Origin: a virus | Strand: one strand, 5' to 3' | DNA length: 36,074 nucleotides | Virus record (IMG/VR): IMGVR_UViG_3300045988_089796 | Shown: in pieces, positions 1-29,569 of the stretch | How the letters are laid out: every line of letters begins with the position of its first letter | How positions within the stretch are numbered: position 1 is the first letter of the stretch | Position numbers and translations under genes: made by a program | The notes under the pieces: generated by a model | What the model was told of the DNA's origin: nothing | Database searches by the model: none | Seen by the model: only the letters and a program-made list of their open reading frames with translations

Positions 1-55
1 TGTCGTGGATTTCAATTGAGCCATCCTCACGCTTTCGCATTAAGAATACGTGTCC
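1..55. repeat. Terminal 55-bp exact direct repeat, copy 1. This is an assembly overlap, so the molecule is circular or circularly permuted with a unique length of about 36,019 bp.
   Basis: Bases 1-55 (tgtcgtggatttcaattgagccatcctcacgc...gtgtcc) are identical to 36020-36074. An ORF reads through the junction without a stop. Confidence 0.9.
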
Positions 56-280
56 ATCTTCTGTATACTGACCTCTTGAAAATCCCAAAAATCCAATCAC
101 CCAAATACCCACTGGTGCATGCCCAGTATTTATCCTACCCGCGTTCAGTTCGTTTAAGTAAGCTGTTTGAGCATTCGGCGAACGTGCGAGTGAGTTAATC
201 GCGTCATCTACATACTGTAAGCACCAGCCGCTTCTCGCTCCGATATTTAGATTTGGTTCATAGATTTGTCGTACTGGCAT
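1..280 (-). CDS. Endolysin, 5' segment encoding the N-terminal CHAP/NlpC-P60-like cysteine peptidase domain. The gene continues at 36019 once the contig is circularised.
   Basis: The ATG at 280-278 follows a GAGGAGG RBS and overlaps the upstream stop (TAATG). The translation is MPVRQIYEPNLNIGARSGWCLQYVDDAINS...VGIWVIGFLGFSRGQYTEDGHVFLMRKREDGSIEIHD. It is in frame with ORF 34584..36059 through the 55-bp overlap. The Cys (GWCLQY) and His (DGHVFL) arrangement is CHAP-like. Confidence 0.7.
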   Translation of the reverse strand, partial: MPVRQIYEPNLNIGARSGWCLQYVDDAINSLARSPNAQTAYLNELNAGRINTGHAPVGIWVIGFLGFSRGQYTEDGHVFLMRKREDGSIEIHD

Positions 281-651
281 TATTTCCTCCTCACTTGTGT
301 TTGAACTTCTTCCTTTAATTCTGTAACTGTCTTATTCTGTTGAATTAAGTTGTTAGTTGCGTAAATTGCTAATCCTACAAGTGCGATTGCGAATAATTTC
401 GCTAAGTTGCTTGTTACAAGGCTCCAAAAATTCATCACACCCTCGATTTCGCTACGCTTGACGTACTTTACTTCTGATTCTTTTTCGTGCGCTGCCAATT
501 GCGCTTGAGTAACATTCGCCCGTGCTATATTCTCAATTCGCTCTAAGGTTATAGTGTGTTTATCCACGCCCTCTTTAATATGCTCAACGTTCGCCTGCAA
601 GGCTCCGAATTCTTTTGCTGATACTTCTGGCTGTTCGTTGTTTTTGTCCAT
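280..651 (-). CDS. XhlA-like lysis-associated membrane protein
   Basis: 123 aa. It has an N-terminal coiled coil (ANVEHIKEGVDKHTITLERIENI) and one C-terminal TM helix (LFAIALVGLAIYATNNL). It lies directly upstream of the endolysin. The architecture matches the XhlA family. Confidence 0.55.
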   Translation of the reverse strand: MDKNNEQPEVSAKEFGALQANVEHIKEGVDKHTITLERIENIARANVTQAQLAAHEKESEVKYVKRSEIEGVMNFWSLVTSNLAKLFAIALVGLAIYATNNLIQQNKTVTELKEEVQTQVRRK

Positions 652-705
652 AACTACCTCTTTTTTATTTTGATGTCTCTTTTAGCTATTCTAATATAAA
701 ACCGC

Positions 706-1095
706 TTGAATATACAGTCGTGCAATATTGATTTTACGACTATACCAGGCAATAAATATAGTGCTGAAGAGCAAGATACAGGTCAAAAATGGCTCGACGG
801 TCGCCCTATCTATCGTAAAGTCGTGCGTGGCACTGTGAACATGACTGGCAACAGCACATCGAGGCTCGCTCATGGTATTCAAGGCTTAACTAGTAGATGG
901 GAACTAATAAAATATTATGGCAATATGCGGCTTGGCGGTACTTTATCAAACAATCCTGTAAAACAGGCACTGCCTTATATTGAGAACACGCATCAGTCGG
1001 GAATTACGTCAATAGACGAGACTACTGTAACAATATCAGGCAGTTATCCTTGGGGTAATTCAGAGGTTAGTCTTGTACTAGAATATGTTAAATAA
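706..1095 (+). CDS. Silent alternative tail-fibre C-terminal cassette in inverted orientation. It has no ATG and no RBS.
   Basis: This is the only credible plus-strand ORF. Its frame opens at 700 after a TAA, the first possible start is a TTG, and no SD is present. Residues CNIDFTTIP repeat the DNIDFTTMP of the minus-strand tail fibre at the nucleotide level. The body carries a tail-fibre-tip-like motif (EEQDTGQKWLDGRPIYRKVV). Its stop at 1093-1095 lies 1 nt from the convergent tail-fibre stop at 1097-1099. Confidence 0.6.
   Translation: MNIQSCNIDFTTIPGNKYSAEEQDTGQKWLDGRPIYRKVVRGTVNMTGNSTSRLAHGIQGLTSRWELIKYYGNMRLGGTLSNNPVKQALPYIENTHQSGITSIDETTVTISGSYPWGNSEVSLVLEYVK
723..743. repeat. Left inverted repeat of the putative invertible tail-fibre segment
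   Basis: caatattgattttacgactat is the perfect reverse complement of 1452..1472. It occupies the same codon phase in ORF 706..1095 as its partner does in the tail-fibre gene. Confidence 0.85.
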
Positions 1096-1096
1096 C

Positions 1097-2056
1097 CTAG
1101 CCTATAGCTATCCAGTTCACATAATACGTTCCCAAAAGTGGCGCGCCGTCGAAACGTCGACATCTAGCCGTAAAGCCTGAGTTTGTAACACCTACCGCAC
1201 TAAAAGCACATCCACCCCAGGATGAATTCGGGGTATCTGTCCACCCGTCGCCAGGTTGACCATATCCGCCAAAGCTACAGACCACAGTCGGGATTGTACC
1301 TGACGTGAATGATTCTGGAAAAGTGATTTGAGCCGTAGCCTCAAGTGTAGCCACTGGAGCATTTAGCATAGCCACACCACACTGGATTTTCACAGGTTTA
1401 TCGCCGACCGTTCTGTTATTGCGCTGTATCTTAGTGTTTTCAGATATCGGCATAGTCGTAAAATCAATATTGTCAGCCTTTATTGTTGTCTGAGCAATTT
1501 TGCTTCCACTTACTGAGCCGTTCTCTAAATAATCACCGTTGAACGGCAAGCCTACCATTTTTCTCATGTCCATAATCGACGTCTGAGCAAGCGATGTAGC
1601 GTTAGCGTTTATTCGAACTCGACCAAAAACGATGTAAGGGTTAGTCGCTCCCACGCCAGACTGAATGACTGAGGCAGGTGGGTCTTGTGGTGAGGCGGCA
1701 GGTGTACCCGCAATCTCTTTAATTTTGAAAATGCCGTTGGTGTTGTCTATCACTGTAGTTGTTGGTGAGACGGATTTGTCTATATAGCCTACAATCAGAG
1801 AGTTCCGCGGTAAAGACGGTGAGGCTGCGGCTAAAGTTATGACCTCGTCTGTATCTGCTTGAACCATATGTCCGTAACCAAGCCCAGTGTCGATGTTGGC
1901 TGTGCCAGCTTTTACGACCACTTTAAGCCCCGTTCCGCCTGGGGCTACAATATTCAACCCGTTTGCAACTGACGTGCCATACAGGGCGTTTATAAAGGCT
2001 GAGAGGGCGGCTTGTGAGTGTCTGCCCCCGTTCATATTGAAAACTTTTTTTGTCAT
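1097..2056 (-). CDS. Tail fibre / receptor-binding protein. The C-terminus currently expressed is H-type-lectin-like.
   Basis: 319 aa with an AAGGAGAA RBS. It is the last structural gene before the lysis genes. The C-terminus (QITFPESFTSGTIPTVV...VGVTNSGFTARCRRF...YYVNWIAIG) has an H-type lectin-like pattern. The constant N-terminal part ends at the DNIDFTT repeat. Confidence 0.65.
   Translation of the reverse strand: MTKKVFNMNGGRHSQAALSAFINALYGTSVANGLNIVAPGGTGLKVVVKAGTANIDTGLGYGHMVQADTDEVITLAAASPSLPRNSLIVGYIDKSVSPTTTVIDNTNGIFKIKEIAGTPAASPQDPPASVIQSGVGATNPYIVFGRVRINANATSLAQTSIMDMRKMVGLPFNGDYLENGSVSGSKIAQTTIKADNIDFTTMPISENTKIQRNNRTVGDKPVKIQCGVAMLNAPVATLEATAQITFPESFTSGTIPTVVCSFGGYGQPGDGWTDTPNSSWGGCAFSAVGVTNSGFTARCRRFDGAPLLGTYYVNWIAIG
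1452..1472. repeat. Right inverted repeat of the putative invertible tail-fibre segment
   Basis: atagtcgtaaaatcaatattg is the reverse complement of 723..743. It encodes (D)NIDFTT(M) inside tail-fibre gene 1097..2056. Confidence 0.85.
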
Positions 2057-2077
2057 TTTAATTCTCCTTTTCTTTTA

Positions 2078-2524
2078 TCATACCAACGTCAAGCTACCCT
2101 TTCCAGTAGACAAAGCGTAAAACTTTATTCTGTATGTTTCTTGCCTATCTCCCGCCGACAGTCTAAGTTTCACGGAAAAGTCTTGGTATTTTTCTGAAGT
2201 TGGGGGCTTCCTAAAAATGCGAATGTCTGGAGTCGGTGGGTACTGTGCTGAGGTTTTGACTTCGTGATGTTCAGCGATTTTGAAGCAAGCTGGTTGCTTT
2301 CCGTCTCTTGTTTTTTCGGGCGTGAACCTAGCCGTGTAGTTGTACTCTTGCTCAAGCGCGTTAGCTGGCAAGGTGATTTCTACGTCCCAAACTTTCTCTG
2401 TTTGAGACTTAAAAGTTTTGACTGCGTCTGAGCCTACAATCTGATTACCTTTTAGCTCGTTGAAGTCCGTCTCAAGTTCTCGAATTATCGAGATTAGGTC
2501 ATTGTCTTCGCTTAATCTACTCAT
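2078..2524 (-). CDS. Distal-tail/baseplate-associated protein, paralog 3 of 3
   Basis: I place the start at MSRLSEDNDLISIIRELETDFNELKGNQIVGSDAVKTF (ATG at 2524), 2 nt after the upstream stop. The N-terminal helix is homologous to that of 2527..2961. Confidence 0.55.
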   Translation of the reverse strand: MSRLSEDNDLISIIRELETDFNELKGNQIVGSDAVKTFKSQTEKVWDVEITLPANALEQEYNYTARFTPEKTRDGKQPACFKIAEHHEVKTSAQYPPTPDIRIFRKPPTSEKYQDFSVKLRLSAGDRQETYRIKFYALSTGKGSLTLV

Positions 2525-2526
2525 CC

Positions 2527-2961
2527 TCAATACCTCTCTGCTCTTATTGTAACAGGGGCGTTGGCAATCACCGTAGCTCTGATGTTGAACGTATAGCCTG
2601 TAGCTTGATTTCCGAAAACAGGCACGAACCAAGCCATAAAGTCCGCACCGTATCTTGTAGGGTCAAGCGGGAATGAGAACGGGGCAGAGTCTAACTCCAT
2701 AGCTCTGTCAATCTCAACCACCATATCTGCCACTAGGTCTATCCCCTCGGATTGAACGTAAAATATGACAGCTCCCCACTTACTGCCTGGAATTTGTCCG
2801 TTCTTGTCGCACGTGATAGAGATATCCCAGGGCTTACCTGATGTTTGCGGATAAGTCATAATCTGATTTGAGCCTATAAATTGACGGCTTTTCAGCTCGT
2901 TCCTTTCTCTCTGCAAGATGTGGATACGTTCTATCAAACTGTTGTCGTCTCTGTAAATCAT
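2527..2961 (-). CDS. Distal-tail/baseplate-associated protein, paralog 2 of 3
   Basis: 144 aa. Its N-terminus (SLIERIHILQRERNELKSRQFIGSNQIMTYPQTSGKPWDISIT) aligns with paralog 3 (SIIRELETDFNELKGNQIVGSDAVKTFKSQTEKVWDVEIT). Confidence 0.55.
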   Translation of the reverse strand: MIYRDDNSLIERIHILQRERNELKSRQFIGSNQIMTYPQTSGKPWDISITCDKNGQIPGSKWGAVIFYVQSEGIDLVADMVVEIDRAMELDSAPFSFPLDPTRYGADFMAWFVPVFGNQATGYTFNIRATVIANAPVTIRAERY

Positions 2962-2976
2962 TTCTCATATTCCCAT

Positions 2977-3573
2977 CTACGTAATATAGCGATAGCTCTT
3001 TACTAACATTCTCAACTGTCCTTTGTCCGTGCTTCTCACGAAAAATCGGAACTTCAAGCTTATACCTTGTCCTGGTGGTGTTTCCCAGTAAAATGACGAT
3101 TTCCATCTATACACTGGTTTCTGTAAAGAATAATTCGTCAAATCGTTTTGATAATTTAATTCGCTGTTAGCCAGTAGAGAAGCCTGCCCAGTAGAGGCTA
3201 TCATACAAACTCCAAAGTTCGGATTGTAAGACGGTTGCAATCTCGCAGAATTATTCAGCAAGGCATCTAGGTAGGGTATCACAATTGGGCAGTCTTGATT
3301 TAATGGTCGAAATTCACACGTAACGTCTAAGTTGTTGAGTGCACCTACCATTGAAGTCGGGGGCAGGTTCACGGTGTCGGTGGTAGTTACTACCCCGTTG
3401 TAATCCGTGTACTCGAAAGACTGCCAGTCCGTACTTTTAGGATTTAAGTATGTTTTCACGCCCGATTTATTAGAGGTAGGTTGAGGTGTAAGTTTGAGGT
3501 CTATCAATTTAGCCTCCAGGTTGGCAATTCGCCTCTGTAGGTGCATTTCCTGCATGTCGTTTAATCTGTTCAT
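2977..3573 (-). CDS. Distal-tail/baseplate-associated protein, paralog 1 of 3 (more divergent)
   Basis: 198 aa. It has an N-terminal coiled coil (LQRRIANLEAKLIDLKL) followed by a beta-rich body, the same layout as the two downstream genes. It lies directly after Tal. Confidence 0.5.
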   Translation of the reverse strand: MNRLNDMQEMHLQRRIANLEAKLIDLKLTPQPTSNKSGVKTYLNPKSTDWQSFEYTDYNGVVTTTDTVNLPPTSMVGALNNLDVTCEFRPLNQDCPIVIPYLDALLNNSARLQPSYNPNFGVCMIASTGQASLLANSELNYQNDLTNYSLQKPVYRWKSSFYWETPPGQGISLKFRFFVRSTDKGQLRMLVKSYRYIT

Positions 3574-3581
3574 AGCCCTTG

Positions 3582-4664
3582 TTACCCCTCCTCTTGCTGA
3601 GCCACAATGTTGTCGATGTTGATATCGTCAAAAGTGATATCGACTGTCTCTGCGTCGTTATTGTCGACTGAACACTCGATTTTCTCAATCCTGTAATAGC
3701 CTTTGATGTGAGACAAAGACTTGAACCCGCCCAGCTCGGCGTAAACGGTATCACCTACTCCTACATCATTTAAGTCTAGTATTCCATCGTGAACTGTAAA
3801 CGACGGAAGCTCTCGCGGGTCTTTAGTAGCTTGAAGAACTCCGTTTACATTTTCCTGTAAGGTGGATAATCTTTCAACTGAGTTGTAAGTAACGACTTTC
3901 TCCCGACGGTAGAACTGTTGCATAGAGTGATAATCGCGTGAAAACGCTTGTACAGCGTCGTCTCCGTTTCCCGAACCAAATCCTTGTATATAGTTGAAAA
4001 GCACGTCTCCGCGTCTCTCAAACGTAAATGAGTCTACATTTTCGGGGTAGACTAATCGAATATCTGGGCGGTAGTTTCCCAAAGCCTCATATGAATGAAA
4101 AGTCTTGTCAGCGTCGAACTTAATGTCAGGTCCTTTAATCACGTTGGTCATCTGCTGGATAAAGTCCTTGACGTTTTTCTTGGTGAAGTGTCGGTCGCGC
4201 TTCATTCCCTGAGCTATGTTTCCCTTTTTAATTCCGAAATTGCTCCCCGTTTTCGCTTGCACCTGGTCAATCACGCCCCAGAGAATATCGCCCTGCCAAG
4301 TATTGTCGTAATCAATCGTTAGATACTGGTCTTTCAGATAATTCAAGTATCCAGTGCAACTCACGGTCAGTTTCACGGAAGCTCCATCTGGTGAATATCC
4401 AAACTTGATGATGTTAGCTCCGAATAAATACTTGCCCTCTCGCTTTACCCTGATATCTGTTGACAGAATGTCCATGAACGAAAAGGGGTTAGCTATCACC
4501 CCAATCTTCTCTATGTACTGCTCGTATTCGTATAAGTCCATCTCGAACTCCAGCGTCTCGTGAGCGTTTCTCTGCATTGTCCACTTCACGTTAGAACAAA
4601 GGTGGCGAATATCTCCTAACAAGACACCGTTCTTACTCCAAACTTCGATTTCATACCTGCTCAT
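3582..4664 (-). CDS. Tail-associated protein Tal (prophage tail endopeptidase-type baseplate hub)
   Basis: 360 aa. It holds the position after Dit. The N-terminus (MSRYEIEVWSKNGVLLGDIRHLCSNVKWTMQRNAHETLEFEM) is typical of siphophage Tal N-terminal domains. Confidence 0.65.
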   Translation of the reverse strand: MSRYEIEVWSKNGVLLGDIRHLCSNVKWTMQRNAHETLEFEMDLYEYEQYIEKIGVIANPFSFMDILSTDIRVKREGKYLFGANIIKFGYSPDGASVKLTVSCTGYLNYLKDQYLTIDYDNTWQGDILWGVIDQVQAKTGSNFGIKKGNIAQGMKRDRHFTKKNVKDFIQQMTNVIKGPDIKFDADKTFHSYEALGNYRPDIRLVYPENVDSFTFERRGDVLFNYIQGFGSGNGDDAVQAFSRDYHSMQQFYRREKVVTYNSVERLSTLQENVNGVLQATKDPRELPSFTVHDGILDLNDVGVGDTVYAELGGFKSLSHIKGYYRIEKIECSVDNNDAETVDITFDDINIDNIVAQQEEG

Positions 4665-4665
4665 C

Positions 4666-5493
4666 TTAAATACCTAAGAACCCTGACTGGTATCGAACCT
4701 CAGCTTTTGAATTCTCTGAAGCTATATCGCTTTGTATTTCCATAACGTTCACTCCTGGGATAAGACCGAAGAATGTCGAACCGTCGCGCTGTAATGAATA
4801 GACATTTAAGCCGTTGTGAGTGATAGTCTTGTTCCGCATGTCGATTATCAGTTTATCGCCCTCAAGTACTGTAGTCATCACTTGCATAAACTCGTTAGTG
4901 GCTCGATTGATGAGTTTCGGGTTAGTAGCTAGTGTACTGATAGTGATAATTGGGTAGACTGTCTCATTCCCTGAGTTAGTTACGACTGACGGCTCACCCC
5001 CAGCTGAGATGTTGAAAGGTATATCAAAGGGTATATCAAAACCGCCATCCATAACCTTGCCTACCGTTGCTAATAATTCCCCAGCTGAGTTGTCATAAAA
5101 GAGAGGGTCTTCAGACAGTAAATCAATCTTCCACTTCACTATATTCAGTTCACGGTTGATAGGCATTTGGTTAGCCATAACGAACACTTCAGTTATGAAC
5201 TCCATTCCCGCGTAGGTGATGATACGAAGCTTCAATTTTTTCCTCTGTAACACGCTCACAAGCTCTCTACGCTTGTTTTCCACGTCAATTGGTTCACCAC
5301 CAAAGATACGACCCTGGAAGCTGATATAGCGCCCCTCATACAGTTGTCGCGACACCCACGAACCATCTCTACCCTGATTTACGCCAGTTGCTGAGCGAAT
5401 ATTCGGCAATCCAGACACGCCCTCGATTGGCTCGTCCAGATACATAAGGTTCTCTGCGCTGTTTAGTTCAAAATCATCTAAATATACTCTCAT
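4666..5493 (-). CDS. Distal tail protein Dit (siphovirus tail component)
   Basis: 275 aa, immediately downstream of the tape measure. The Dit-like N-terminus is MRVYLDDFELN...GVSGLPNIRSATGVNQGRDGSWV. Confidence 0.65.
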   Translation of the reverse strand: MRVYLDDFELNSAENLMYLDEPIEGVSGLPNIRSATGVNQGRDGSWVSRQLYEGRYISFQGRIFGGEPIDVENKRRELVSVLQRKKLKLRIITYAGMEFITEVFVMANQMPINRELNIVKWKIDLLSEDPLFYDNSAGELLATVGKVMDGGFDIPFDIPFNISAGGEPSVVTNSGNETVYPIITISTLATNPKLINRATNEFMQVMTTVLEGDKLIIDMRNKTITHNGLNVYSLQRDGSTFFGLIPGVNVMEIQSDIASENSKAEVRYQSGFLGI

Positions 5494-5503
5494 CTTTCCC
5501 TCC

Positions 5504-8020
5504 TTATGCTTGGCTCACTAGATATCCAATTCTCGACGCCAGTTGATACGCGTCTGTGTCTTTGTAAATCTTAGCGTCAATATTGATGTTGATGTTGCCT
5601 CTCTCTCGATTTTCTTTCAGGTAGTTTTCAGTCCTCTGTGCTGGCATAACCTTAGCCCCTCTTGGCAGAGTAACCATCTCAGGTCCGTTCTCACCAACCA
5701 GATATCTACCACCCTCGGCGTGTTCTGTACCCTTTGCTAATCGTCCAAAATGAACTTCTGGTACTTTCGGAATGTGAACCCCTGGGATGTTGTTGATGAT
5801 ACCAGCTGCTCCGTTGATTAAACCGATAAAGAAGTTGATACTTTTCTCTGCTCCGCTAATGATACCGTTCACGACACTCTTAACAGCTCCACCTATCGCG
5901 TTTCCGACGGCTGTACCTATTGTTGTGAACTTATTTACAATCGTATTCCACATGTCCTGGAAGAATTGTCCCACGGGCGCGAACACTTTCTTTACGTTTT
6001 CCCAGGCTTCTCTGAACCTATCTCCGAACCACGTGCTGACTGTTTGGAAGACACCAACCACCTTATTCCAGACTTCACCAAAGAACCCAGCTGCCGCGTT
6101 CCAGGTGTCGCAAATGGCAGTCCAAGCCTCCTTAAATCTGTCTCCGAACCACGTGCTGACTGTCGTGAATATTTCGACTATGCCATTCCACACACCCTGG
6201 AAGAACTCGACTACCGCATTCCAAACTGTCTTTATGCCCTCCCAAGCGTCATTGAACCTATCGCTAAACCATTGAACTACAGGTGTGAATACCTCGACAA
6301 TTTTATTCCAGAGACCGACGAAGAAATCACCTACCGCAGTTGCTATGGTGTTGAAAAACGCCTTTATTTCGTCCCAGTGTTGAATAATCAAACCAAGGAT
6401 GAGTGAGAATGGCCAGAATATCACCGCCAGTACTGTCAGTCCCCATTCTTTGAACCAGTTCACGACTTTATTGAACACATCTTTGACACCAGTCCAGACG
6501 TCTCCGAACCATTTCTTAATTCCGTCCCACAAATCCTTAAAGAACTTGATTGCGTCGTCCCAGCTCTTCTTGAACCACTTAACAAACTCATCAACGCCTT
6601 TTTTAATTCCGTCCCAGGCACCTATAAAGAAGTTCCTGAACCCCTCGACGTTATTCCAAAGCCAAATAAACCCAGCGACTAAGGCTGTAACGGCGATGAT
6701 TGTCGCACCTATAGGGTTAGTTGCGAACGCAATTCCCAACTTCACGACCTGGATTGTCGCTTTCTTGACTGCCCCAGCTATCACGCCGAACGCAGTTCCG
6801 ATTTTCGCCGAAGTAACCCCCTGAGACGCACCCTTAATGCCCTCCATGCCCAACTTAAAGCCATCAGCCGCGGTCTGGCAACTCAAAAATGCACCGTGTA
6901 AGCCCTTTATAACGCCTGTAACGACGTTTATAGTCTTGAGACCCAACGCTGCCGCCTTGAACGCCACAAACGCCCCAGCGGCGATTTTAACAGCTAACAC
7001 GACTTTATCGAAGTTCTCACTCAACCATTTCAGAGCGTCAAGTATTTTCGGTATGATTTCCTCTGCCAGTTTCGCCAATTGGTCGCCCAGGTCTTTCATC
7101 GCCTGTTTCATCTCGGGCTTGTTCATCTCTTCAGTCAAACCTCGGATTAAGTTCATCAATCTGTCGCCAGCTCCGCCCTCAATAAACTTGTTCGTGTTTG
7201 CGTCCACACCCAAAATCTGCATACCCAGATTACGAAAAGCAGACTGTACGCGGATTAAAGCACCATCAATGGTGTTAGCTCGCCCCTCCAAGAGACTGTC
7301 TGGCAAGGCTTTATCTAGGGCTTTGAACAATTCTTCACTCGTGATTTTCGTACCACGAAGTGATTTATCTAATCCTATTCCTCGCTCAATCAACATATCG
7401 AATGTCATAGCGTCCAGATTCCCAGTCGCGGAAACGCGTCCAAGGATAGCTGACAATTCTTGGAATGAGGTTTTGCCCAAAGATACACCCTTGGACAGGA
7501 TTTTCACCTTATCGACTAACGTGCTAGTTTCCTGACCGTACATCTTCAAGGTAGAAGCAGCCGCGAATAAGTCCGAACGGTTAAATAGAACTCCAGTGTC
7601 GCTTTTCGCATATTTCACCAAATCCTGCAAGACTTTATTGACGGCGTTCCCATCTTTTTCATAGGCTTTCAGTGCATATGAGGCGTTCTCGACGTTCCTC
7701 ACTTGTTCAAACGCTGCCTTGCCCATCGCCATAAAGCCAACTGAACCCGTAACCGCCACACCTGCTATACCCTTTAAGAATGAACCGACCTTTGAAGCCG
7801 CACCGTCCAGTCCTGTTGTCATTCTCGACAGTCCCGATTGAGTGTTAGTTAGAAAATCACGGAAAGACTTATGAGCATTGCCAGCCGCGACTTGTTGACG
7901 CTTAAAACTCGCCTCAACTTCATTCGTGGCGGATTTAGAGGCAGACGCCAACTTGGCAAAAACCTCTGAAGCGCTGTCCTGTGCTGAGATGATGATTTTA
8001 ACGTTGTTGTTGCTTGCCAT
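5504..8020 (-). CDS. Tape measure protein
   Basis: 838 aa and the longest ORF. It has a helical N-terminus, central TM-like stretches, tandem Trp-rich 40-aa repeats (STWFGDRFKEAW.../STWFGDRFREAW...) and a typical C-terminus (GENGPEMVTLPRGAKVMP). Confidence 0.9.
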   Translation of the reverse strand: MASNNNVKIIISAQDSASEVFAKLASASKSATNEVEASFKRQQVAAGNAHKSFRDFLTNTQSGLSRMTTGLDGAASKVGSFLKGIAGVAVTGSVGFMAMGKAAFEQVRNVENASYALKAYEKDGNAVNKVLQDLVKYAKSDTGVLFNRSDLFAAASTLKMYGQETSTLVDKVKILSKGVSLGKTSFQELSAILGRVSATGNLDAMTFDMLIERGIGLDKSLRGTKITSEELFKALDKALPDSLLEGRANTIDGALIRVQSAFRNLGMQILGVDANTNKFIEGGAGDRLMNLIRGLTEEMNKPEMKQAMKDLGDQLAKLAEEIIPKILDALKWLSENFDKVVLAVKIAAGAFVAFKAAALGLKTINVVTGVIKGLHGAFLSCQTAADGFKLGMEGIKGASQGVTSAKIGTAFGVIAGAVKKATIQVVKLGIAFATNPIGATIIAVTALVAGFIWLWNNVEGFRNFFIGAWDGIKKGVDEFVKWFKKSWDDAIKFFKDLWDGIKKWFGDVWTGVKDVFNKVVNWFKEWGLTVLAVIFWPFSLILGLIIQHWDEIKAFFNTIATAVGDFFVGLWNKIVEVFTPVVQWFSDRFNDAWEGIKTVWNAVVEFFQGVWNGIVEIFTTVSTWFGDRFKEAWTAICDTWNAAAGFFGEVWNKVVGVFQTVSTWFGDRFREAWENVKKVFAPVGQFFQDMWNTIVNKFTTIGTAVGNAIGGAVKSVVNGIISGAEKSINFFIGLINGAAGIINNIPGVHIPKVPEVHFGRLAKGTEHAEGGRYLVGENGPEMVTLPRGAKVMPAQRTENYLKENRERGNININIDAKIYKDTDAYQLASRIGYLVSQA
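5990..6560. repeat. Degenerate tandem repeats of 120 bp (40 aa) inside the tape measure gene
   Basis: The 23-mer tctccgaaccacgtgctgactgt occurs at 6021-6043 and 6141-6163. Degenerate copies follow near 6261 and 6501. Confidence 0.75.
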
Positions 8021-17970: not shown

Positions 17971-18588
17971 CTAAAATCCTTTCTCAAGATGACGGTTAGT
18001 GAGTATATCTTTACGACTCATCTCAAAAGTCTCAAGGCAGTGTGGACACATGATTTCAAGGGTAGCGTCTTGTCGTTCCTCTGATTTTTTCTCAAACTGT
18101 TCTTCCAGTTCTTTCTCTTTTTTCTCGACTTGCTCGTCGGTGATTTCAAAGTCTAAGTCCTTAAAGCCTGCCTCTAAGTTAATCTCAGGGAAGAATGACT
18201 TCACCGTTAATGGGTCGATAAACTCTTTCAACTCCAAGGTGAGGTTGTCAATGTCCCAGTTTGAGTACTCGCTGGTCTTGTTATCAACCACTCGGAATTC
18301 CTTAGCTTTCTTCTTGTCCATTTCTGAGACGATTACAGCCACGGTGTCGAACTTTTTGTATAGTTTCCCATCTTTGTCGCTATTGAGCCTCTGAAGTGCC
18401 TTAAAACGCGTATGACCAGCTATTATGACGTTATCTTTGTCCACAATGATTGGCACTTGGTATCCGTAAGTCTCGATAGACTCCATAACTTTCTGAACAG
18501 CCTCATCATTATTATCTCTTGGGTTTCGCCAGTACGGCTGGATTTTACTAAGCTTTATCTGTGTCAGTTTGTTTGTCGGCGTTTCCAT
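17971..18588 (-). CDS. ParB N-terminal-domain (ParB/Srx-like nuclease) protein with a C-terminal zinc ribbon
   Basis: I favour the start METPTNKLTQIKLSKIQPYWRNPR (ATG at 18588, AAGGAGAAG RBS). The track ORF extends to 18672. The motif VIIAGHTRFKALQRL is ParB-like, and CPHC is at the C-terminus. Confidence 0.65.
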   Translation of the reverse strand: METPTNKLTQIKLSKIQPYWRNPRDNNDEAVQKVMESIETYGYQVPIIVDKDNVIIAGHTRFKALQRLNSDKDGKLYKKFDTVAVIVSEMDKKKAKEFRVVDNKTSEYSNWDIDNLTLELKEFIDPLTVKSFFPEINLEAGFKDLDFEITDEQVEKKEKELEEQFEKKSEERQDATLEIMCPHCLETFEMSRKDILTNRHLEKGF

Positions 18589-19219
18589 TTTTCTTCTCCT
18601 TTTCTTTCCATTCTTTTTTATATTTGAGCTGTTTGTCTGTTTCCCAAGACTTTCCATACTCAACGTCTTCAAATAGTTTACTAAAGCCCGTGATGTGTTT
18701 CAATCGTGCTAACTCTTCCGCCTCAAGCCCTAGCTCTTTACAGATTTCTTGGTCGCTCTTCCCGTTTTGAAGCATATCAAAAACGATTGTACTCATCCCT
18801 GCGACTGAGTGCTTGCCTCTCGCTCGGTTGTGTCGAACGGTAGACGCCATTCTTTCGTTGATGTCTTTATTCAAAACCACGCACGGAAGATATCCGTTAT
18901 TCAGCTCGTAGATATCTTTGTTAGTCCTCATAGTCGTGTAGCGGTGAAATCCGTCCACAATGACATACTTCTGGATACTCTCATCCCAGATGGTTACGAC
19001 CGGCATTGTGTAGGTGTCGTGGAAGATTGACAGATACAAAAGCCTCATCTCGTTACGGGCTACAGCGTTTGGGTTGTAGTCGTTAGCTTGCACTTGCTCA
19101 ATCGGTATGAACTTCACATTAGCTACGGCGTTATGTTTACAAAACTCTGGTAGGTGTGAGTTGTCTACCTCGTAAATTGGGCGTTTCTCGGTGTTCTCTT
19201 TTTGTTCCATTTTAGTCAT
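18548..19219 (-). CDS. IbrB-like ParB-domain protein
   Basis: 223 aa. The ParB/Srx fold motifs are FIPIEQVQANDYNPN...VIVDGFHRYTTMR. It overlaps the stop of the upstream PAPS-reductase-like gene. Confidence 0.65.
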   Translation of the reverse strand: MTKMEQKENTEKRPIYEVDNSHLPEFCKHNAVANVKFIPIEQVQANDYNPNAVARNEMRLLYLSIFHDTYTMPVVTIWDESIQKYVIVDGFHRYTTMRTNKDIYELNNGYLPCVVLNKDINERMASTVRHNRARGKHSVAGMSTIVFDMLQNGKSDQEICKELGLEAEELARLKHITGFSKLFEDVEYGKSWETDKQLKYKKEWKEKEKKNGNADKQTDTDKA

Positions 19220-20771: not shown

Positions 20772-21563
20772 TCACCTCTTTCTATTCTTCAAGTGCATAG
20801 CTCTTGCGAAAGGCGTGAGGTCAGAACTTATAGGCTCATGGTGATTATTTCCCTTAGTCGCATACTTGTCTTTCTTGGCTCTCTTATAGTCGAATATTTC
20901 AGGATGAGGCACTACTGCGTCGTGCTTGTGTCTCCAGTCTTTCAGCCCTCCCTTGGTTACGACAGCGTGAACTATCAAAGAACCTAAATATCTGTAGTTT
21001 TCGTAACCGTTCACATAAGCCTTTGCTGATATCTCAGAGTCTTCATATCCGATATTGTCTGGCATAGAGATTATCAAGTCTCGAATACGCCTGCCAAAGA
21101 CCATTCCTCCTGCCGTGTGAACTATACTTTGCTTTATGAATTCCGACTTCATCTTGGGTATCTTTTTTTGAGCTAATTCAAAAGTGCGTCCCCAATTTCC
21201 AGAAACACAGCCTACAAAATCGTACTTCAGAACCATCTTAGCCATCGTGTTGTAGTTTTGAGTGGGTAAAATTATCATGTCATCGTCTAGGTTGCAATAA
21301 ACGTCATAGTCTGATTGATAACACAGCTTGCGTCCTCCGAAGCAACCTAAGGGCTTCTCAGAGGTTTTGAAGACAGTTCTGTCCGTCAACCCCAATTCAT
21401 CAATAAAGCGCGTCATATCGTCTCTCTCAGCCTCTGAGTAGCATTGAGCAGCTATGAGAATATCCCAGGTGTCGTCCACCTCGGCTTTGATAGACTCTAA
21501 CAGCCTTTTAAGCCCCTGTATTCTGTTAGGAACAGTCGGGATTACAAAAGCTTTAGTCGCCAT
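20772..21563 (-). CDS. GT-A fold (family 2-like) glycosyltransferase
   Basis: 263 aa. The N-terminus (FVIPTVPNRIQGLKRLLESI) and a DDD motif (NLDDDMIIL) are typical of GT-A enzymes. Confidence 0.55.
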   Translation of the reverse strand: MATKAFVIPTVPNRIQGLKRLLESIKAEVDDTWDILIAAQCYSEAERDDMTRFIDELGLTDRTVFKTSEKPLGCFGGRKLCYQSDYDVYCNLDDDMIILPTQNYNTMAKMVLKYDFVGCVSGNWGRTFELAQKKIPKMKSEFIKQSIVHTAGGMVFGRRIRDLIISMPDNIGYEDSEISAKAYVNGYENYRYLGSLIVHAVVTKGGLKDWRHKHDAVVPHPEIFDYKRAKKDKYATKGNNHHEPISSDLTPFARAMHLKNRKR

Positions 21564-25313: not shown

Positions 25314-25319
25314 AACGAC

Positions 25320-27771: not shown

Positions 27772-27974
27772 AACAAAACCTCCTGTCCCCGTTCATCTTG
27801 GATACGTGATATAGCTAAGATGAGTTTTTCTAATTCTGAGTATCTGTCCAAAGCTCCGCTCTTCATTTCGGCTAACGTTTCATCGTCAAACGTTCTCAGT
27901 GTCTCAAGTTGTCGACACTCTCGACGCTCGTCGTCTTCTTTTATCGCTTCGTCTATTTCTCTAGGCGTTTCCAT
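27768..27974 (-). CDS. Hypothetical acidic protein
   Basis: 68 aa. It overlaps both neighbouring genes, which suggests translational coupling. Confidence 0.45.
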   Translation of the reverse strand: METPREIDEAIKEDDERRECRQLETLRTFDDETLAEMKSGALDRYSELEKLILAISRIQDERGQEVLF

Positions 27975-28515
27975 TTTGTTCTCCCATATTTTCTAGTGTA
28001 GCTCTGATATCACAGCCTACCGTTATTATTAAGTCGACGGCTTCCTCATACATCTTTGGCGATAGATGAACGCGTTGAAAATCGACTTCTTGAGTATGTT
28101 GGTTGAATTGCATATAGTCAAACACTTGAGCTTCTGGGAATAGAACTTTGTAAATCTTGTGTTGAATTCCGTTCGCATACGTAGCTAAAGGCGTTCTCCC
28201 TGTCTTAAAGTCTACCAGGTGCATTTCACCATCCACAAAATGGCAGAGGTCAACTCGACCTTTCAGCTTCAGCCAGTCCGTGAGTTCCAATTCTCTAGTT
28301 AGCTCTGTACCCCATCTTTCCAAAGGCTCGCCTCCGAATACTTTCGGTAAACATCCTGTGTTTCTGACTTCTTGCTCCCATTCTTTGTGTTTGTCAATTC
28401 CGTACTGAGCCGCCTCGCTGGTTTCTCCCCAGTCTCCCTTGAGGGCTTTGAAGACGCCCTCGTAGTCGCCCGCAAGCCACCAGCTTATGAGTGAGTAACT
28501 AAGCTTAATGTTCAT
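27961..28515 (-). CDS. PD-(D/E)XK (RecB/Cas4-like) exonuclease
   Basis: 184 aa. The motifs GRVDLCHF...GEMHLVDFKTGR (D...ExK) and QHKIYKVL (QxxxY) are present. It lies in a module with RecT. Confidence 0.7.
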   Translation of the reverse strand: MNIKLSYSLISWWLAGDYEGVFKALKGDWGETSEAAQYGIDKHKEWEQEVRNTGCLPKVFGGEPLERWGTELTRELELTDWLKLKGRVDLCHFVDGEMHLVDFKTGRTPLATYANGIQHKIYKVLFPEAQVFDYMQFNQHTQEVDFQRVHLSPKMYEEAVDLIITVGCDIRATLENMGEQNGNA

Positions 28516-28517
28516 CT

Positions 28518-28931
28518 TTATTTCAATCTGCTTATACTGATTTTCTTTTGACGTTTAACTTTCTCTATTCCGTCTGGTAACTTTCCATCATGATTTTCTG
28601 CATAAGCTGAGACCAGCTCGGTGTTGAGTGAGTAGGTCGTTTCCGTCTTATAAAAGTCTGGTGAGGCGTTCTTCGGGTCGACCAGTTTATACAAAGCTCC
28701 AAACGCTCGATATTCAACTTTGATTTTGTCGCCTCGCACTCCAGAGAAGTCTGGGTTCAGTTTCAAGCCGTTAGTCTCGAGATTGCTCTTGACCTGCTCT
28801 ATGACATTATCTAGTTTGTCCTTGATTTCAAGCAGTTTTTCCAGTTTGTCCTCAGCGTTTTTATCAAAGACGAACTTACCGCCATCTTTGGCTGTTATTA
28901 CGATGTCGTCAGTGTCGATTGTGATTATCAT
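28518..28931 (-). CDS. Hypothetical protein in the recombination module
   Basis: I favour the start MIITIDTDDIVI (ATG at 28931), which overlaps the recT stop as ATGA. The N-terminal extension in the track, to 29087, lies inside recT. Confidence 0.5.
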   Translation of the reverse strand: MIITIDTDDIVITAKDGGKFVFDKNAEDKLEKLLEIKDKLDNVIEQVKSNLETNGLKLNPDFSGVRGDKIKVEYRAFGALYKLVDPKNASPDFYKTETTYSLNTELVSAYAENHDGKLPDGIEKVKRQKKISISRLK

Positions 28932-29569
28932 TTTTGACCTCCCAAGCGTTTCATAGCCTCTTTTTTCGCCTGCTCTTTGTCCTCGTCTGAGGCTTGAGCG
29001 GGTGTGAAGTCCTCGACAATTTCGGCTTCCTCGTATACTTTGCCCAGATTTGGGAATGCTGCCCGTAAGGCTTGAGCCTCCGCACATTTCGCTAACATAA
29101 CCTCTGGGAATTTGCGATACATGTTTCCCAGGGCGCTATCTCCTGGATAATAGTCTTCCCATTGAGCTGAGCGTGAGGTTTTAATTGGTAGACCGTCCAC
29201 GACTTTTATGACAGTTACGGTCGCGGTGTTCGGTACTTTCTTGACCTTACCGTTGACTTTGACGGTCAGTCCCGCGTCATAGTCGAACTTTGGCAGTTCT
29301 GAGCCTCCGTACTTTCCCGACCTTTCAGCCACAGCTCGCATTCCGTCAATTCCTGTCTGGATTGTGAGCTTTCCACCTCGATAAATCGCGTAGATTTCTT
29401 TACGGGCTGGGTTTAACCCTGTAGCTTGGCAGGTTTGAGCGTAGAAAATCATCTCTTCCATCGATGGTTCTTTGCCTTTGCCCGCAAACAATTGCTCTTT
29501 GATTAGCTCCAGCCACGCCTTAGGGCTTGCCCCTTGTGGTGCGAACTTTGCCAGCGTGTTCACGTCCAT
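28928..29569 (-). CDS. recT: RecT-family single-strand annealing protein
   Basis: 213 aa. The pattern GLNPARKEIYAIYRGGKLTIQTGIDGMRAVAERSGKY...MLAKCAEAQALRAAFP is typical of RecT. Confidence 0.8.
   Translation of the reverse strand: MDVNTLAKFAPQGASPKAWLELIKEQLFAGKGKEPSMEEMIFYAQTCQATGLNPARKEIYAIYRGGKLTIQTGIDGMRAVAERSGKYGGSELPKFDYDAGLTVKVNGKVKKVPNTATVTVIKVVDGLPIKTSRSAQWEDYYPGDSALGNMYRKFPEVMLAKCAEAQALRAAFPNLGKVYEEAEIVEDFTPAQASDEDKEQAKKEAMKRLGGQK

What the first reader, a model, noticed from the sequence alone, without database searches (positions are those of the whole stretch)
700..1475. In-frame invertible tail-fibre C-terminus cassette (host-range switch) with no recombinase encoded in the genome
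A perfect 21-bp inverted repeat (723..743 and 1452..1472, caatattgattttacgactat) lies in the coding sequence on both strands. In the tail-fibre gene on the minus strand it encodes DNIDFTT. In the only plus-strand ORF it encodes CNIDFTT. Both copies sit in the same codon phase.

The plus-strand ORF has no ATG, no SD and no upstream promoter. Its stop is 1 nt from the tail-fibre stop, so the two unrelated C-terminal domains are packed tail to tail inside the repeat-bounded 750-bp segment. One domain is H-type-lectin-like (active now). The other is of the TGQKWLDGRPIYRK type (silent now). Inverting the segment would replace the last 124 or so residues of the fibre with the alternative 116 or so residues and silence the current one.

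This is the logic of the Mu G, P1 C and p15B segments. However, I can recognise no serine invertase, tyrosine recombinase, Rci homologue or reverse transcriptase anywhere in the 36-kb genome. The switch may therefore depend on a host enzyme or on an unrecognised phage function, such as the RecT/exonuclease or NinG module.
Basis: partly seen in the sequence, partly recalled or inferred. Interest (0 to 1): 0.8.

Follow-up and report, generated by a model that had tools for sequence, protein, structure and literature searches.

The report
Recombinase-less invertible tail-fibre switch
A phage of ultrasmall mouth bacteria (Saccharibacteria/TM7) carries two alternative receptor-binding tips for its tail fibre on a flippable 0.74-kb DNA segment, encodes no enzyme to flip it, and bounds the segment with copies of a conserved host chromosomal recombination site, so it probably borrows the host's own recombinase to change its target.

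Summary
A perfect 21-nt inverted repeat (723-743 / 1452-1472) lies in frame in the tail-fibre gene (1097-2056, minus) and in a start-less plus-strand ORF. The two C-terminal cassettes sit tail to tail.

The invertible-switch reading is supported by comparison. A 95% identical contig (L001) has exactly this segment flipped, with breakpoints inside the repeat. Four flank lineages each show both orientations, including one pair with 99.8% identical flanks. I found 37 distinct repeat pairs in viral contigs. Both cassettes show dN/dS of about 0.11 whichever copy is silent.

The window is a complete circular genome (55-nt terminal overlap). About 60 ORFs contain no serine or tyrosine recombinase, reverse transcriptase or transposase.

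New finding: the host is Saccharibacteria. The repeat is the core of a 28-bp 11-6-11 site that matches a single-copy intergenic site in 17 TM7 genomes (ATGTCGCACAA-TATAGA-TTTTACGACAT). The same site lies next to a xerD-like gene in other Patescibacteria, so it is dif-like. One related phage bounds its cassette with 26/28 and 27/28 copies.

Best explanation: a host Xer-type tyrosine recombinase flips the cassette. The inversion is well supported. The identity of the enzyme is inferred. I rate this a new variant of a known kind, with high interest.

The parts
1454..2056 (-). Constant N-terminal part of the tail-fibre gene (residues 1-201, ending ...KADNIDFTT).
   Evidence: ORF. It is 97-98% identical over residues 1-203 in L001-L003, and similarity stops at the repeat. 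dN/dS is 0.12 against L001.
1453..1480 (-). Fibre-side crossover site, a 28-bp dif-like site: AAGGCTGACAA | TATTGA | TTTTACGACTA (left arm 1480-1470, spacer 1469-1464, right arm 1463-1453). It contains the repeat arm 1452-1472.
   Evidence: 21/28 identical to the host consensus. It is one of only two sites in the whole genome with 8 or fewer mismatches. The repeat arm was confirmed.
1097..1453 (-). Currently expressed C-terminal cassette (M202-G319 plus stop), H-type-lectin-like.
   Evidence: PF09458 at E 1e-4, below the cut-off. The same cassette is the silent antisense ORF in L001 and L003 and in a podovirus-like contig, L280. dN/dS is 0.11.
742..1095 (+). Currently silent C-terminal cassette (IPGNKYSAEEQDTGQKWLDGRPIYRK...EYVK plus stop).
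   Evidence: There are 242 homologues. Many are C-termini of 172-224-aa proteins that sources name tail fiber protein. It is the active C-terminus in L001. dN/dS is 0.11. The AF2 model is all-beta with pLDDT 79.6, and there is only a weak match to the R-pyocin fibre foot.
715..742 (+). Distal (silent-side) crossover site, a 28-bp dif-like site: CAGTCGTGCAA | TATTGA | TTTTACGACTA (left arm 715-725, spacer 726-731, right arm 732-742). It contains the repeat arm 723-743.
   Evidence: 21/28 identical to the host consensus. Its left arm is non-coding yet resembles the host arm. Across 16 distinct silent-flank arms, identity is 4.7/8 against a null of 2.3, reached by 0 of 20000 resamplings.
729..1466 (.). 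Invertible segment (spacer to spacer, about 0.74 kb) holding the two cassettes tail to tail, with 1 nt (1096) between the stops.
   Evidence: Reverse alignment to L001 between colinear flanks. In-silico flipping keeps the ORF intact.
652..714 (.). Non-coding distal flank, which stays fixed in both orientations. It lies upstream of the 123-aa membrane-protein gene.
   Evidence: The flank peptide artefact ..RLNIQSC is the same in the window, L001 and L003 whichever cassette abuts it.
280..651 (-). 123-aa single-TM, holin-like neighbour. It is not part of the switch but is syntenic with it.
   Evidence: Apart from the fibre, this is the only window protein widely shared next to repeat pairs (34 of 57 loci). 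It has no family match. A lysin follows it.
27961..29569 (-). RecT (28928-29569) and PD-(D/E)XK nuclease (27961-28515). These are the phage's only recombination proteins and the candidates for the rival homologous-recombination explanation.
   Evidence: PF03837 at E 1e-20 and PF12705 at E 6e-7.

Best explanation
The window is the complete genome of a siphovirus from the human mouth. Its host is a Saccharibacteria (TM7) bacterium.

The tail-fibre gene consists of a constant N-terminal part and one of two unrelated receptor-binding C-terminal cassettes of about 117 residues. The cassettes lie tail to tail on a 0.74-kb segment. The segment is bounded by two inverted 28-bp sites, each with an 11-bp arm, a 6-bp spacer and an 11-bp arm. 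The inner 18-21 nt of each site double as the codons for NIDFTT.

These sites imitate a conserved single-copy chromosomal site of the host (ATGTCGCACAA-TATAGA-TTTTACGACAT). That site has the layout of a dif site and lies beside a xerD-like gene in other Patescibacteria.

During infection, or in lysogens of temperate relatives, the host's Xer-type tyrosine recombinase binds both phage sites and exchanges strands at the identical spacers. This flips the segment. The previously silent cassette is then fused in frame to the fibre and the other cassette is silenced, which changes receptor specificity.

What is shown: the anatomy; both orientations in close relatives; purifying selection on both cassettes; absence of a phage recombinase; and the similarity of the sites to the host site.

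What is inferred: that the host site is dif; that a host Xer enzyme is the catalyst; how often flipping occurs; and that the cassettes differ in receptor.
For: Inversion:
- Window 1472..723 aligns in reverse to L001 between colinear flanks.
- Both orientations occur in four flank lineages. L020 and L029 have flanks 99.8% identical over 5.6 kb on each side, with the segment flipped.
- There are 37 distinct repeat pairs in IMG/VR, always + then -, spaced 701-852 nt.
- All 17 silent cassettes first surveyed are intact ORFs. dN/dS is 0.11 for both cassettes.
- Two contigs of the cultured Nanosynbacter sp. TM7-076 assembly, and a MAG contig, terminate exactly at the inner edge of the repeat. This fits mixed orientations in the reads.

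No phage enzyme:
- The genome is a complete circle.
- No recombinase family was found in about 60 ORFs. tblastn with four tyrosine recombinases from relatives was negative.
- No conserved unknown gene lies near repeat pairs in unrelated phages.

Host and site:
- 27 of the 120 genome hits to the 18-nt core that I checked are Saccharibacteria or close relatives. They include a prophage in a 164-kb TM7 contig.
- Seventeen TM7 genomes each carry one intergenic copy of the 28-mer, between convergent genes.
- The same 28-mer occurs in Liptonbacteria, Moraniibacteria and Woesebacteria. In Woesebacteria it lies 476 nt from a xerD-like gene.
- In syntenic loci of other Patescibacteria the arms are conserved and the central 6 bp vary.
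- The window has only two such sites, each 21/28.
- Non-coding silent-flank left arms resemble the host arm.
- A rumen phage bounds its cassette with 26/28 and 27/28 copies.
- Mismatches between the two arms of a pair never fall in the spacer but do fall in the right arm, leaving as little as 10 nt of perfect identity.
- Relatives that lack a silent cassette lack the core, even when they carry the same H-lectin head.
Against: - No read-level evidence of both orientations in one sample was available. The exact flipped protein of this phage is not in the 15-billion-protein collection.
- That the host 28-mer is dif was not proven. GC skew around it is not clean. Its position relative to the terminus could not be checked.
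- No xer gene lies within the 8-kb TM7 blocks. I did not show that TM7 genomes encode Xer.
- In Moraniibacteria the 28-mer lies next to an integrase and phage-like genes, so it can also serve as an attachment site.
- The window's sites match the host consensus at only 21/28, and the fibre-side left arm is constrained by coding.
- Canonical XerCD recombination at dif needs FtsK activation. No activation factor was identified in the phage.
Confidence: 0.6

Rival explanations
1. The invertase is a tyrosine recombinase supplied in trans by a co-resident prophage or other mobile element of the host, not the chromosomal Xer enzyme. The conserved 28-mer would then be that element's attachment site.
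For: - Many relatives, including TM7 prophages, encode XerC/D-like integrases 1-4 kb from the fibre.
- In Moraniibacteria the 28-mer lies 437 nt from an integrase followed by phage-like genes.
- The left side of the TM7 28-mer is variable and rich in mobile-type genes.
Against: - The attachment region next to the integrase of prophage L120 has no dif-like core.
- Contigs with integrases but no repeat pair have no such site.
- The 28-mer is single-copy among the returned hits. It is often next to ftsQ-murG-ftsW and is conserved across several Patescibacteria phyla. In Woesebacteria-type loci it is paired with a syntenic xerD-like gene.
Confidence: 0.15
2. Inversion happens by homologous recombination between the short inverted repeats. 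It would be driven by the phage RecT/PD-(D/E)XK pair, by host RecA, or by template switching during replication.
For: - The window encodes RecT and a PD-(D/E)XK nuclease.
- The two arms evolve in concert: CAATATTGAT in one lineage and CAAGATAGAC in another.
Against: - Perfect identity is only 18-26 nt, and in some pairs only 10 nt.
- The non-coding silent flank could freely carry a longer repeat but never does. The repeat's outer boundary is at the same nucleotide in unrelated flanks.
- The core is the same in unrelated sipho- and podovirus-like phages and matches a host site, up to 27/28 including bases outside the repeat.
- Mismatches between arms avoid the 6-bp centre.
- RecT was not found near other repeat pairs within the flanks held.
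Confidence: 0.12
3. One of the phage's unannotated proteins (for example 20772-21563, 263 aa, or 28518-29087, 189 aa) is a recombinase of an unrecognised family.
For: Several ORFs of 130-260 aa have no Pfam or PHROG match.
Against: - None of them is shared with the unrelated phages that carry the same sites, within the 6-14 kb of flank held.
- This explanation does not account for the sites copying a host chromosomal site.
Confidence: 0.05
4. There is no ongoing switch. The arrangement is a relic of rare past rearrangements and module shuffling, and the plus-strand ORF is a decaying or separately expressed gene.
For: - No read-level heterogeneity was shown for this phage, and the exact flipped protein is absent from the collection.
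- Cassettes are also replaced wholesale: the H-lectin cassette of L020 and L029 has dS 0.64 while the flanks are 99.8% identical.
Against: - All silent cassettes surveyed are intact, and dN/dS is 0.11.
- Both orientations recur in four lineages.
- Assemblies break at the repeat.
- Silent copies lack start codons in many loci (upstream ORF length 0).
- The core is present exactly where a silent cassette is present.
Confidence: 0.05

Closest known systems
Invertible tail-fibre segments of Mu (G/Gin), P1 (C/Cin), e14 (P/Pin) and p15B (Min)
   Same: A constant N-terminal fibre part is joined to alternative C-terminal parts by inversion between inverted repeats inside the coding sequence. The result is a change of host range. 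This rests on established knowledge, summarised in the paper read (doi 10.64898/2026.02.14.705889) and in PMC6109161.
   Different: Those systems encode a serine invertase next to the segment, use 26-bp gix/cix sites with a 2-bp core, and need a Fis-bound enhancer. Here there is no recombinase in the genome. The sites have an 11-6-11 tyrosine-recombinase layout, the segment is only 0.74 kb, and there are no tail-fibre assembly genes.
Rin shufflon of Bifidobacterium prophages, and the second bifidophage inversion locus (Mavrich et al. 2018, PMC6109161)
   Same: This is tyrosine-recombinase-type inversion of receptor-binding-protein C-termini at short repeats in the coding sequence. The second locus (about 500 bp, 8-bp repeat) has no flanking recombinase, and the authors suggested an invertase supplied in trans.
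   Different: Rin has its own adjacent rin gene, an 11-bp rix repeat and 3-5 cassettes. For the recombinase-less locus, no trans enzyme or host site was proposed, and those prophages still encode integrases. Here the genome has no recombinase at all and the sites match a host chromosomal site.
IMEX elements (CTXphi, VGJphi, TLCphi, gonococcal GGI) and Acinetobacter pdif modules
   Same: These are mobile DNA without its own recombinase. They carry dif-like 28-bp sites and rely on host XerC/D (established knowledge; PMC9226527, PMC7399989 and PMC5790767 were listed).
   Different: Those elements use Xer for integration at dif, or for co-integrate formation and resolution. None is known to use it for in-frame inversion of a phage receptor-binding cassette. 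Catalysis by Xer is not shown here.
R64 shufflon (Rci, sfx sites in pilV)
   Same: Short asymmetric sites (19 bp conserved) inside coding sequence swap the C-termini of an adhesin through a tyrosine recombinase (established knowledge).
   Different: Rci is encoded next to the shufflon, several segments are involved, and the element is a conjugative pilus system, not a phage.

Membership tests
Serine-invertase fibre switches (Gin/Cin/Pin/Min) | A serine recombinase (Resolvase, PF00239) gene adjacent to, or elsewhere in, the element. | tested here: not met
   No resolvase hit in about 60 ORFs of a complete genome.
Serine-invertase fibre switches (Gin/Cin/Pin/Min) | A constant N-terminus and alternative C-termini swapped by inversion at repeats inside the ORF. 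| tested here: met
Serine-invertase fibre switches (Gin/Cin/Pin/Min) | 26-bp hix/gix-type sites with a 2-bp core, plus a Fis-dependent enhancer. | not tested
   I made no formal comparison. The sites parse as 11-6-11 with a variable 6-bp centre, which is a tyrosine-recombinase layout.
Tyrosine-recombinase shufflons (Rci/R64, Rin) | A dedicated tyrosine invertase gene flanking the cassettes. | tested here: not met
   No PF00589 hit in the window, whereas relatives' integrases score E 1e-23 to 1e-28. tblastn was negative.
Tyrosine-recombinase shufflons (Rci/R64, Rin) | Short conserved repeats within the coding sequence at each cassette border, and more than two cassettes. | tested here: inconclusive
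   Short in-frame repeats are present. Each genome has only two cassettes, although at least five cassette types circulate in the population.
Xer-exploiting elements (IMEX / pdif-like) | The element encodes no recombinase of its own. | tested here: met
Xer-exploiting elements (IMEX / pdif-like) | The element carries 28-bp sites (11-bp arms, 6-bp centre) resembling the host's dif. | tested here: met
   The window's sites are 21/28 identical to the TM7 consensus, and they are the only two such sites in the genome. Relatives reach 26/28 and 27/28. Arms are conserved and centres vary in Patescibacteria loci. That the host site is dif itself is inferred.
Xer-exploiting elements (IMEX / pdif-like) | Recombination is catalysed by host XerC/D (or a single Xer). 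| not testable with these tools
   This needs genetics or biochemistry.
Xer-exploiting elements (IMEX / pdif-like) | Integration into, or excision from, the chromosomal dif site. | tested here: not met
   There is no cassette homology next to any of the 17 TM7 28-mers. The reaction inferred here is inversion.
Diversity-generating retroelements | A reverse transcriptase with a template/variable repeat pair. | tested here: not met
   No RT family hit. The only significant repeat is the inverted pair.
H-type lectin domain (PF09458), active cassette | Pfam score at or above the gathering threshold. | tested here: inconclusive
   22.8 bits against a cut-off of 24, E 1e-4, covering 66 of 67 profile positions.

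The most novel reading that the evidence does not exclude
Phages of Saccharibacteria and probably other Patescibacteria have embedded copies of the host chromosome's dimer-resolution (dif-like) site in frame in their tail-fibre genes. The host Xer recombinase, an enzyme the host is unlikely to be able to lose, therefore flips receptor-binding cassettes for them. The same universal site lets unrelated phages (sipho- and podovirus-like) trade cassettes. This would be the first case of a host housekeeping recombinase driving a viral host-range switch, and the first described adaptive mechanism of CPR phages.
Probability: 0.5. Interest if true: 0.9.

Novelty: new variant of a known kind. Interest (0 to 1): 0.8.

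Why it matters
Fibre-inversion switches are a textbook mechanism, but every well-characterised example carries its own invertase. This one is a complete phage genome with none. Its crossover sites copy a conserved host chromosomal site, and that points to hijacking of the host Xer system. Xer hijacking is known for integration (IMEX elements) but not for phase variation of a viral adhesin.

The finding also gives a first concrete and testable handle on phage-host dynamics in Saccharibacteria/CPR. The literature I read calls those interactions largely speculative (PMC13578794).

Further points of interest:
- The analysis predicts the dif site of these reduced genomes.
- The module is common in oral viromes (37 distinct repeat pairs).
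- Cassettes are shared between unrelated phages, which suggests a general docking site for exchange of receptor-binding domains.
- Cultured TM7 strains with such prophages exist (TM7-076), so experiments are feasible.

Tried and rejected
- Cultured-phage comparison. megablast of 1-3600 and tblastn of both cassette proteins against 50,697 GenBank phages found nothing. The portal is only about 25% identical to any cultured phage, so no annotated relative could be used.
- Rfam scan of the 17 TM7 loci. No RNA family lies at the 28-mer, so it is not a known RNA gene or a tRNA-type attB.
- Phage integrase attachment site as the source of the core. The att region beside the L120 integrase has no match. 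Rejected.
- A xer gene next to the TM7 28-mer. None lies within the 8-kb blocks. Adjacency was found only in Woesebacteria-type loci.
- GC skew across the 28-mer. The result was noisy and not decisive. Only gene orientation and AT skew switch.
- Exact look-up of the predicted flipped protein. It is not in the collection.
- Structure of the silent cassette. The model is acceptable (pLDDT 79.6), but Foldseek against PDB gave only weak hits, the best being the R-pyocin fibre foot at E 0.03. No receptor can be inferred.
- The A/T polymorphism at repeat position 19 as a crossover marker. It shows no consistent linkage to flank or cassette and is uninformative.
- Literature. I found no paper describing TM7 phage fibre inversion, a TM7 dif site, or Xer-driven inversion in phages.
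- Conserved neighbour gene. The 123-aa protein beside the segment is widely syntenic. It is a small single-TM protein upstream of the lysin, so I rejected it as a recombinase.
Full report
**1. Observation**

The 21-nt sequence CAATATTGATTTTACGACTAT occurs at 723-743 (+) and 1452-1472 (-) and nowhere else in the window. No dinucleotide-preserving shuffle gave a match, even with three mismatches allowed. With flanks, the inverted repeat extends to 35 nt at 83%.

All credible genes run on the minus strand. The 319-aa fibre ORF at 1097-2056 (-) reads ...KADNIDFTTMPISEN.... The plus-strand ORF at 706-1095 reads LNIQSCNIDFTTIPGNKYSAEEQDTGQKWLDGRPIYRK...EYVK. The two stop codons are 1 nt apart.

The plus ORF has only a TTG start, and no promoter-like site lies upstream of it on its strand. 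Inverting 744-1451 in silico gives an intact 318-aa fibre ORF. The swapped parts are 118 and 117 residues.

**2. Genome context**

The window begins and ends with the same 55 nt, and the lysin gene continues across the junction. It is therefore a complete circular assembly of about 36.0 kb. It comes from a human oral metagenome, ERR589681, PRJEB6997.

It is a siphovirus. The following were identified:
- TerS and TerL, a portal-MuF fusion, a prohead protease and an HK97-type capsid protein
- a tail tube protein, a tape-measure protein, Dit and a Tal-like minor tail protein
- three small paralogues, the fibre, a 123-aa membrane protein and a lysin
- an early region with a replication initiator, RecT, a PD-(D/E)XK nuclease, an interrupted NinG, a MoxR-like ATPase, ParB-like proteins and a PAPS-reductase/DUF3440 protein

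No serine or tyrosine recombinase, reverse transcriptase or transposase family matches any of about 60 ORFs. tblastn with four tyrosine recombinases from relatives finds nothing in the window. Pfam scores those same relatives at E 1e-23 to 1e-28.

**3. Is the segment really invertible?**

Cultured phages give no match, but IMG/VR does.

- L001 is a 36.7-kb contig. Window 6000..1454 aligns colinearly to it at 94.8%, window 1472..723 aligns in reverse at 90.8%, and window 746..653 aligns colinearly at 96.8%.
- In L001 the fibre is the same N-terminus plus DNIDFTT plus the TGQKW...EYVK cassette. The H-lectin cassette is the start-less antisense ORF, preceded by the same flank ..RLNIQSC.
- L003 and L002 pair other cassettes at the same sites.

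A survey found the pair in 17 loci. The core is CAA[T/G]AT[T/A]GA[T/C]TTTACGAC, encoding (N/K)IDFTT. Perfect arms are 10-26 nt (18-26 nt in all loci but one) and the spacing is 716-747 nt. Four lineages, defined by their flanks, each contain both orientations. L020 and L029 have flanks 99.8% identical over 5.6 kb on each side, with the segment flipped.

A pattern scan of IMG/VR gave 110 stretches and 37 distinct genuine pairs, always + then -. Every silent cassette in the first survey is an intact ORF.

dN/dS between the window and L001 is 0.11 for each cassette, whichever copy is silent. It is 0.12 for the constant part.

Relatives without a silent cassette have other junction peptides and no core, even when they carry the same H-lectin head, as in L010 and L011. 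The core therefore goes with invertibility rather than with fibre function.

Two contigs of the cultured Nanosynbacter sp. TM7-076 assembly, and one MAG contig, end at exactly the same nucleotide at the inner edge of the repeat. This is what an assembler produces when both orientations are present in the reads. The evidence is indirect. I had no read data, and the exact flipped protein of this phage is not in the protein collection.

**4. Host, and what the repeat is**

I scanned 185,579 species genomes with the 18-nt core. The scan returned 120 stretches, which is about the number expected by chance for 596 Gb. However, 27 of those I checked are Saccharibacteria, Nanosynbacter or Nanosyncoccus. 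They fall into two classes.

Class 1 consists of fibre genes with cassettes. One is a prophage inside a 164-kb TM7 contig (L120), laid out as fibre, silent H-lectin cassette, holin, lysin, integrase and then a host gene. Together with the oral source and the shared cassettes, this makes Saccharibacteria the host.

Class 2 consists of 17 different TM7 genomes that each carry one intergenic copy of aATGTCGCACAA-TATAGA-TTTTACGACAt.
- The layout is two 11-nt arms that are 9/11 inverted repeats of each other, around 6 central bases.
- 17 of its 28 positions match E. coli dif as I recall that sequence. The comparison was made by eye and is a lead, not a test.
- No Rfam family matches it.
- It lies between convergent genes. 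ORFs on the left are on the + strand in 12 of 14 loci with long ORFs there, and ORFs on the right are mostly on the - strand in 13 of 14.
- ftsQ-murG-ftsW often lies on one side, and variable, mobile-type genes lie on the other.

The same 28-mer occurs in Liptonbacteria, Moraniibacteria and a complete Woesebacteria genome. In the Woesebacteria genome it lies 476 nt upstream of a gene with XerD-type N-terminal SAM-like domains. Homologues of that gene are named XerD by their sources. In two of three further YebC-DUF5656-gap-xerD loci, the gap holds ATGTCGTACAA-TAATAC-TTTTACGACGT or TAGTCGCACAA-TGTTTC-TTTTGCGACAT. The arms are conserved and the centre varies, which is the signature of a tyrosine-recombinase core site. 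This validates the 11-6-11 parse.

I therefore read the 28-mer as the dif-like target of a Patescibacteria Xer-type recombinase. That reading is an inference. GC skew is noisy, no xer gene lies within the TM7 blocks, and in Moraniibacteria the site adjoins an integrase and phage-like genes.

**5. The phage sites are full copies of that site**

- In the window, only 715-742 (+), CAGTCGTGCAA|TATTGA|TTTTACGACTA, and 1453-1480 (-), AAGGCTGACAA|TATTGA|TTTTACGACTA, come within 8 mismatches of the consensus. Each is 21/28.
- The left arm on the silent side is non-coding and lies outside the repeat, yet it resembles the host arm. Sixteen distinct arms average 4.7/8 identity against a null of 2.3, reached by 0 of 20000 resamplings. 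These arms are not phylogenetically independent.
- In a rumen-derived contig (L096/L155), the cassette is bounded by ACGTCGGACAA|TATAGA|TTTTACGACAT (26/28) and, on the non-coding side, ATGTCGCAGAA|TATAGA|TTTTACGACAT (27/28).
- Across the 37 pairs, differences between the two arms of a pair never fall in the six central bases or the adjacent A. They do fall in the right arm, and some pairs keep only 10 nt of perfect identity. This is what a tyrosine recombinase tolerates and homologous recombination does not.
- Contigs that have an integrase but no repeat pair lack such sites. The att region of the L120 integrase lacks the core. The sites therefore do not belong to the phage integrases.
- tblastn of all window ORFs against 57 repeat-bearing loci shows that only the fibre and the neighbouring 123-aa membrane protein are widely shared. 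No hidden conserved recombinase lies near the switch.

**6. Mechanism and rivals**

Best explanation (0.6): a host Xer-type tyrosine recombinase synapses the two inverted dif-like sites and exchanges strands at the identical 6-bp spacers. This flips 0.74 kb and swaps the fibre tip.

Shown: the anatomy, natural isomers, selection on both cassettes, absence of a phage enzyme, and site mimicry. Inferred: the catalyst, the rate, any need for FtsK or an activator, and the difference in receptor.

Rivals:
- A recombinase supplied in trans by a co-resident mobile element (0.15).
- Homologous recombination by RecT or RecA on the short repeat (0.12).
- An unrecognised phage recombinase (0.05).
- No active switching (0.05).

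Cassettes are also exchanged horizontally. An H-lectin cassette at least 90% identical to the window's is the silent cassette of a podovirus-like contig with a 224-aa fibre. Between L020 and L029, one cassette is nearly identical (dS 0.014) and the other has been replaced (dS 0.64).

**7. Comparison with known systems**

Functionally this works like Mu G, P1 C and p15B Min. It fails their defining features, which are an adjacent serine invertase and hix-type sites.

It is closer to the tyrosine-recombinase shufflons: R64 Rci and the bifidophage Rin system (PMC6109161). That paper also reports a roughly 500-bp inversion with no flanking recombinase and suggests an invertase supplied in trans. 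However, the Rin system encodes its own invertase, and those prophages carry integrases.

In its dependence on dif-like sites and its lack of any recombinase, it resembles IMEX elements and Acinetobacter pdif modules. Those integrate or form co-integrates. They do not invert a coding cassette.

I found no paper on TM7 phage fibre switching, a TM7 dif site, or Xer-driven phage inversion. A 2026 paper calls CPR-phage interactions largely speculative (PMC13578794).

**8. Verdict**

I extend it with the host identity and a specific, testable mechanism.

Novelty: a new variant of a known kind. It is an invertible fibre cassette, but it has no recombinase of its own and is bounded by mimics of a host dif-like site, in phages of Patescibacteria.

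Interest: 0.8. The most novel reading not excluded is Xer hijacking as a general host-range and cassette-exchange device of CPR phages. I give it a probability of about 0.5.

Noticed in passing
window 22766-24163 (-): The NinG-like gene appears interrupted. ORF 23567-24163 has the NinG N-terminal part plus Hint/intein-splicing matches. ORF 23049-23570 is an HNH_3 endonuclease. ORF 22766-23077 has the NinG C-terminal part. The three ORFs are in different frames. This may be an intein or homing-endonuclease insertion, or a remnant of one.
   Followed up: no
window 1-55 and 36020-36074: There is a 55-nt identical terminal direct overlap, and the lysin ORF runs across it. The contig is a closed circle or circularly permuted genome of about 36,019 bp.
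   Followed up: yes
window 17971-20342 (-): Two ParB-like proteins are followed by a PAPS-reductase/DUF3440 protein, an IbrA/IbrB-like pair. They sit just upstream of the terminase genes, and a GNAT acetyltransferase is next to them.
   Followed up: no
window 2078-3573 (-): Three small proteins (148, 144 and 198 aa) lie in a row between the Tal-like protein and the fibre. Each starts with a similar coiled-coil-like N-terminus (MSRLSEDNDLISIIRELE.., MIYRDDNSLIERIHILQRE.., MNRLNDMQEMHLQRRIANLE..). None has a family match. They may be further baseplate or receptor-binding components.
   Followed up: no
L280 3001-4033 (ENA ERZ28663584 scaffold_232, 37.1 kb): A podovirus-like contig (SU10_adaptor) has a 224-aa fibre tail to tail with a silent H-lectin cassette. 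That cassette is at least 90% identical to the window's active one. Cassettes move between unrelated phage types.
   Followed up: partly
L020 vs L029 (IMGVR_UViG_3300008415_000015 / 3300008734_000006): The flanks are 99.8% identical and the segment is flipped. One cassette is nearly identical (dS 0.014) and the other is strongly diverged (dS 0.64). This indicates replacement of half of the segment in addition to inversion.
   Followed up: partly
L096 4115-4881 and L155 4228-4994 (contig JAFTFC010000001.1, binned as Prevotella, roe-deer abomasum): The same fibre locus occurs twice, 40 kb apart, in one contig. Each copy is bounded by near-perfect (26/28 and 27/28) copies of the Patescibacteria 28-mer. 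The contig may be a mis-binned or duplicated CPR phage. L163, binned as Vampirovibrio, also has an inverted pair with at least 32 nt of identity.
   Followed up: partly
L276 3001-3878 and L277 3001-3990: The xerD-like gene beside the 28-mer in Patescibacteria is called as two consecutive ORFs, one with the SAM-like domains and one with the catalytic domain. Many homologues are recorded as partial or come from very short contigs. The gene may be split, or assemblies may tend to break there.
   Followed up: no
L120 6500-6760: The junction between the prophage integrase and the first host gene in the TM7 contig contains a GC-rich stretch that looks structured. It may be a small RNA gene serving as the integrase's attB. 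It has no dif-like core.
   Followed up: no
17 TM7 loci, about 15-20 nt upstream of the 28-mer (for example L147, L122, L144): A semi-conserved hairpin followed by a T-run (GACGyATgAAtACtCGTCTTTT) precedes the 28-mer at a fixed distance. It may be a terminator of the convergent gene or an accessory element of the site.
   Followed up: no
window 24369-26309 (-): A MoxR-like AAA_5 ATPase (25320-26309) is paired with a DUF7192 protein (24369-25313) in the early region. Its function in a phage is unknown.
   Followed up: no
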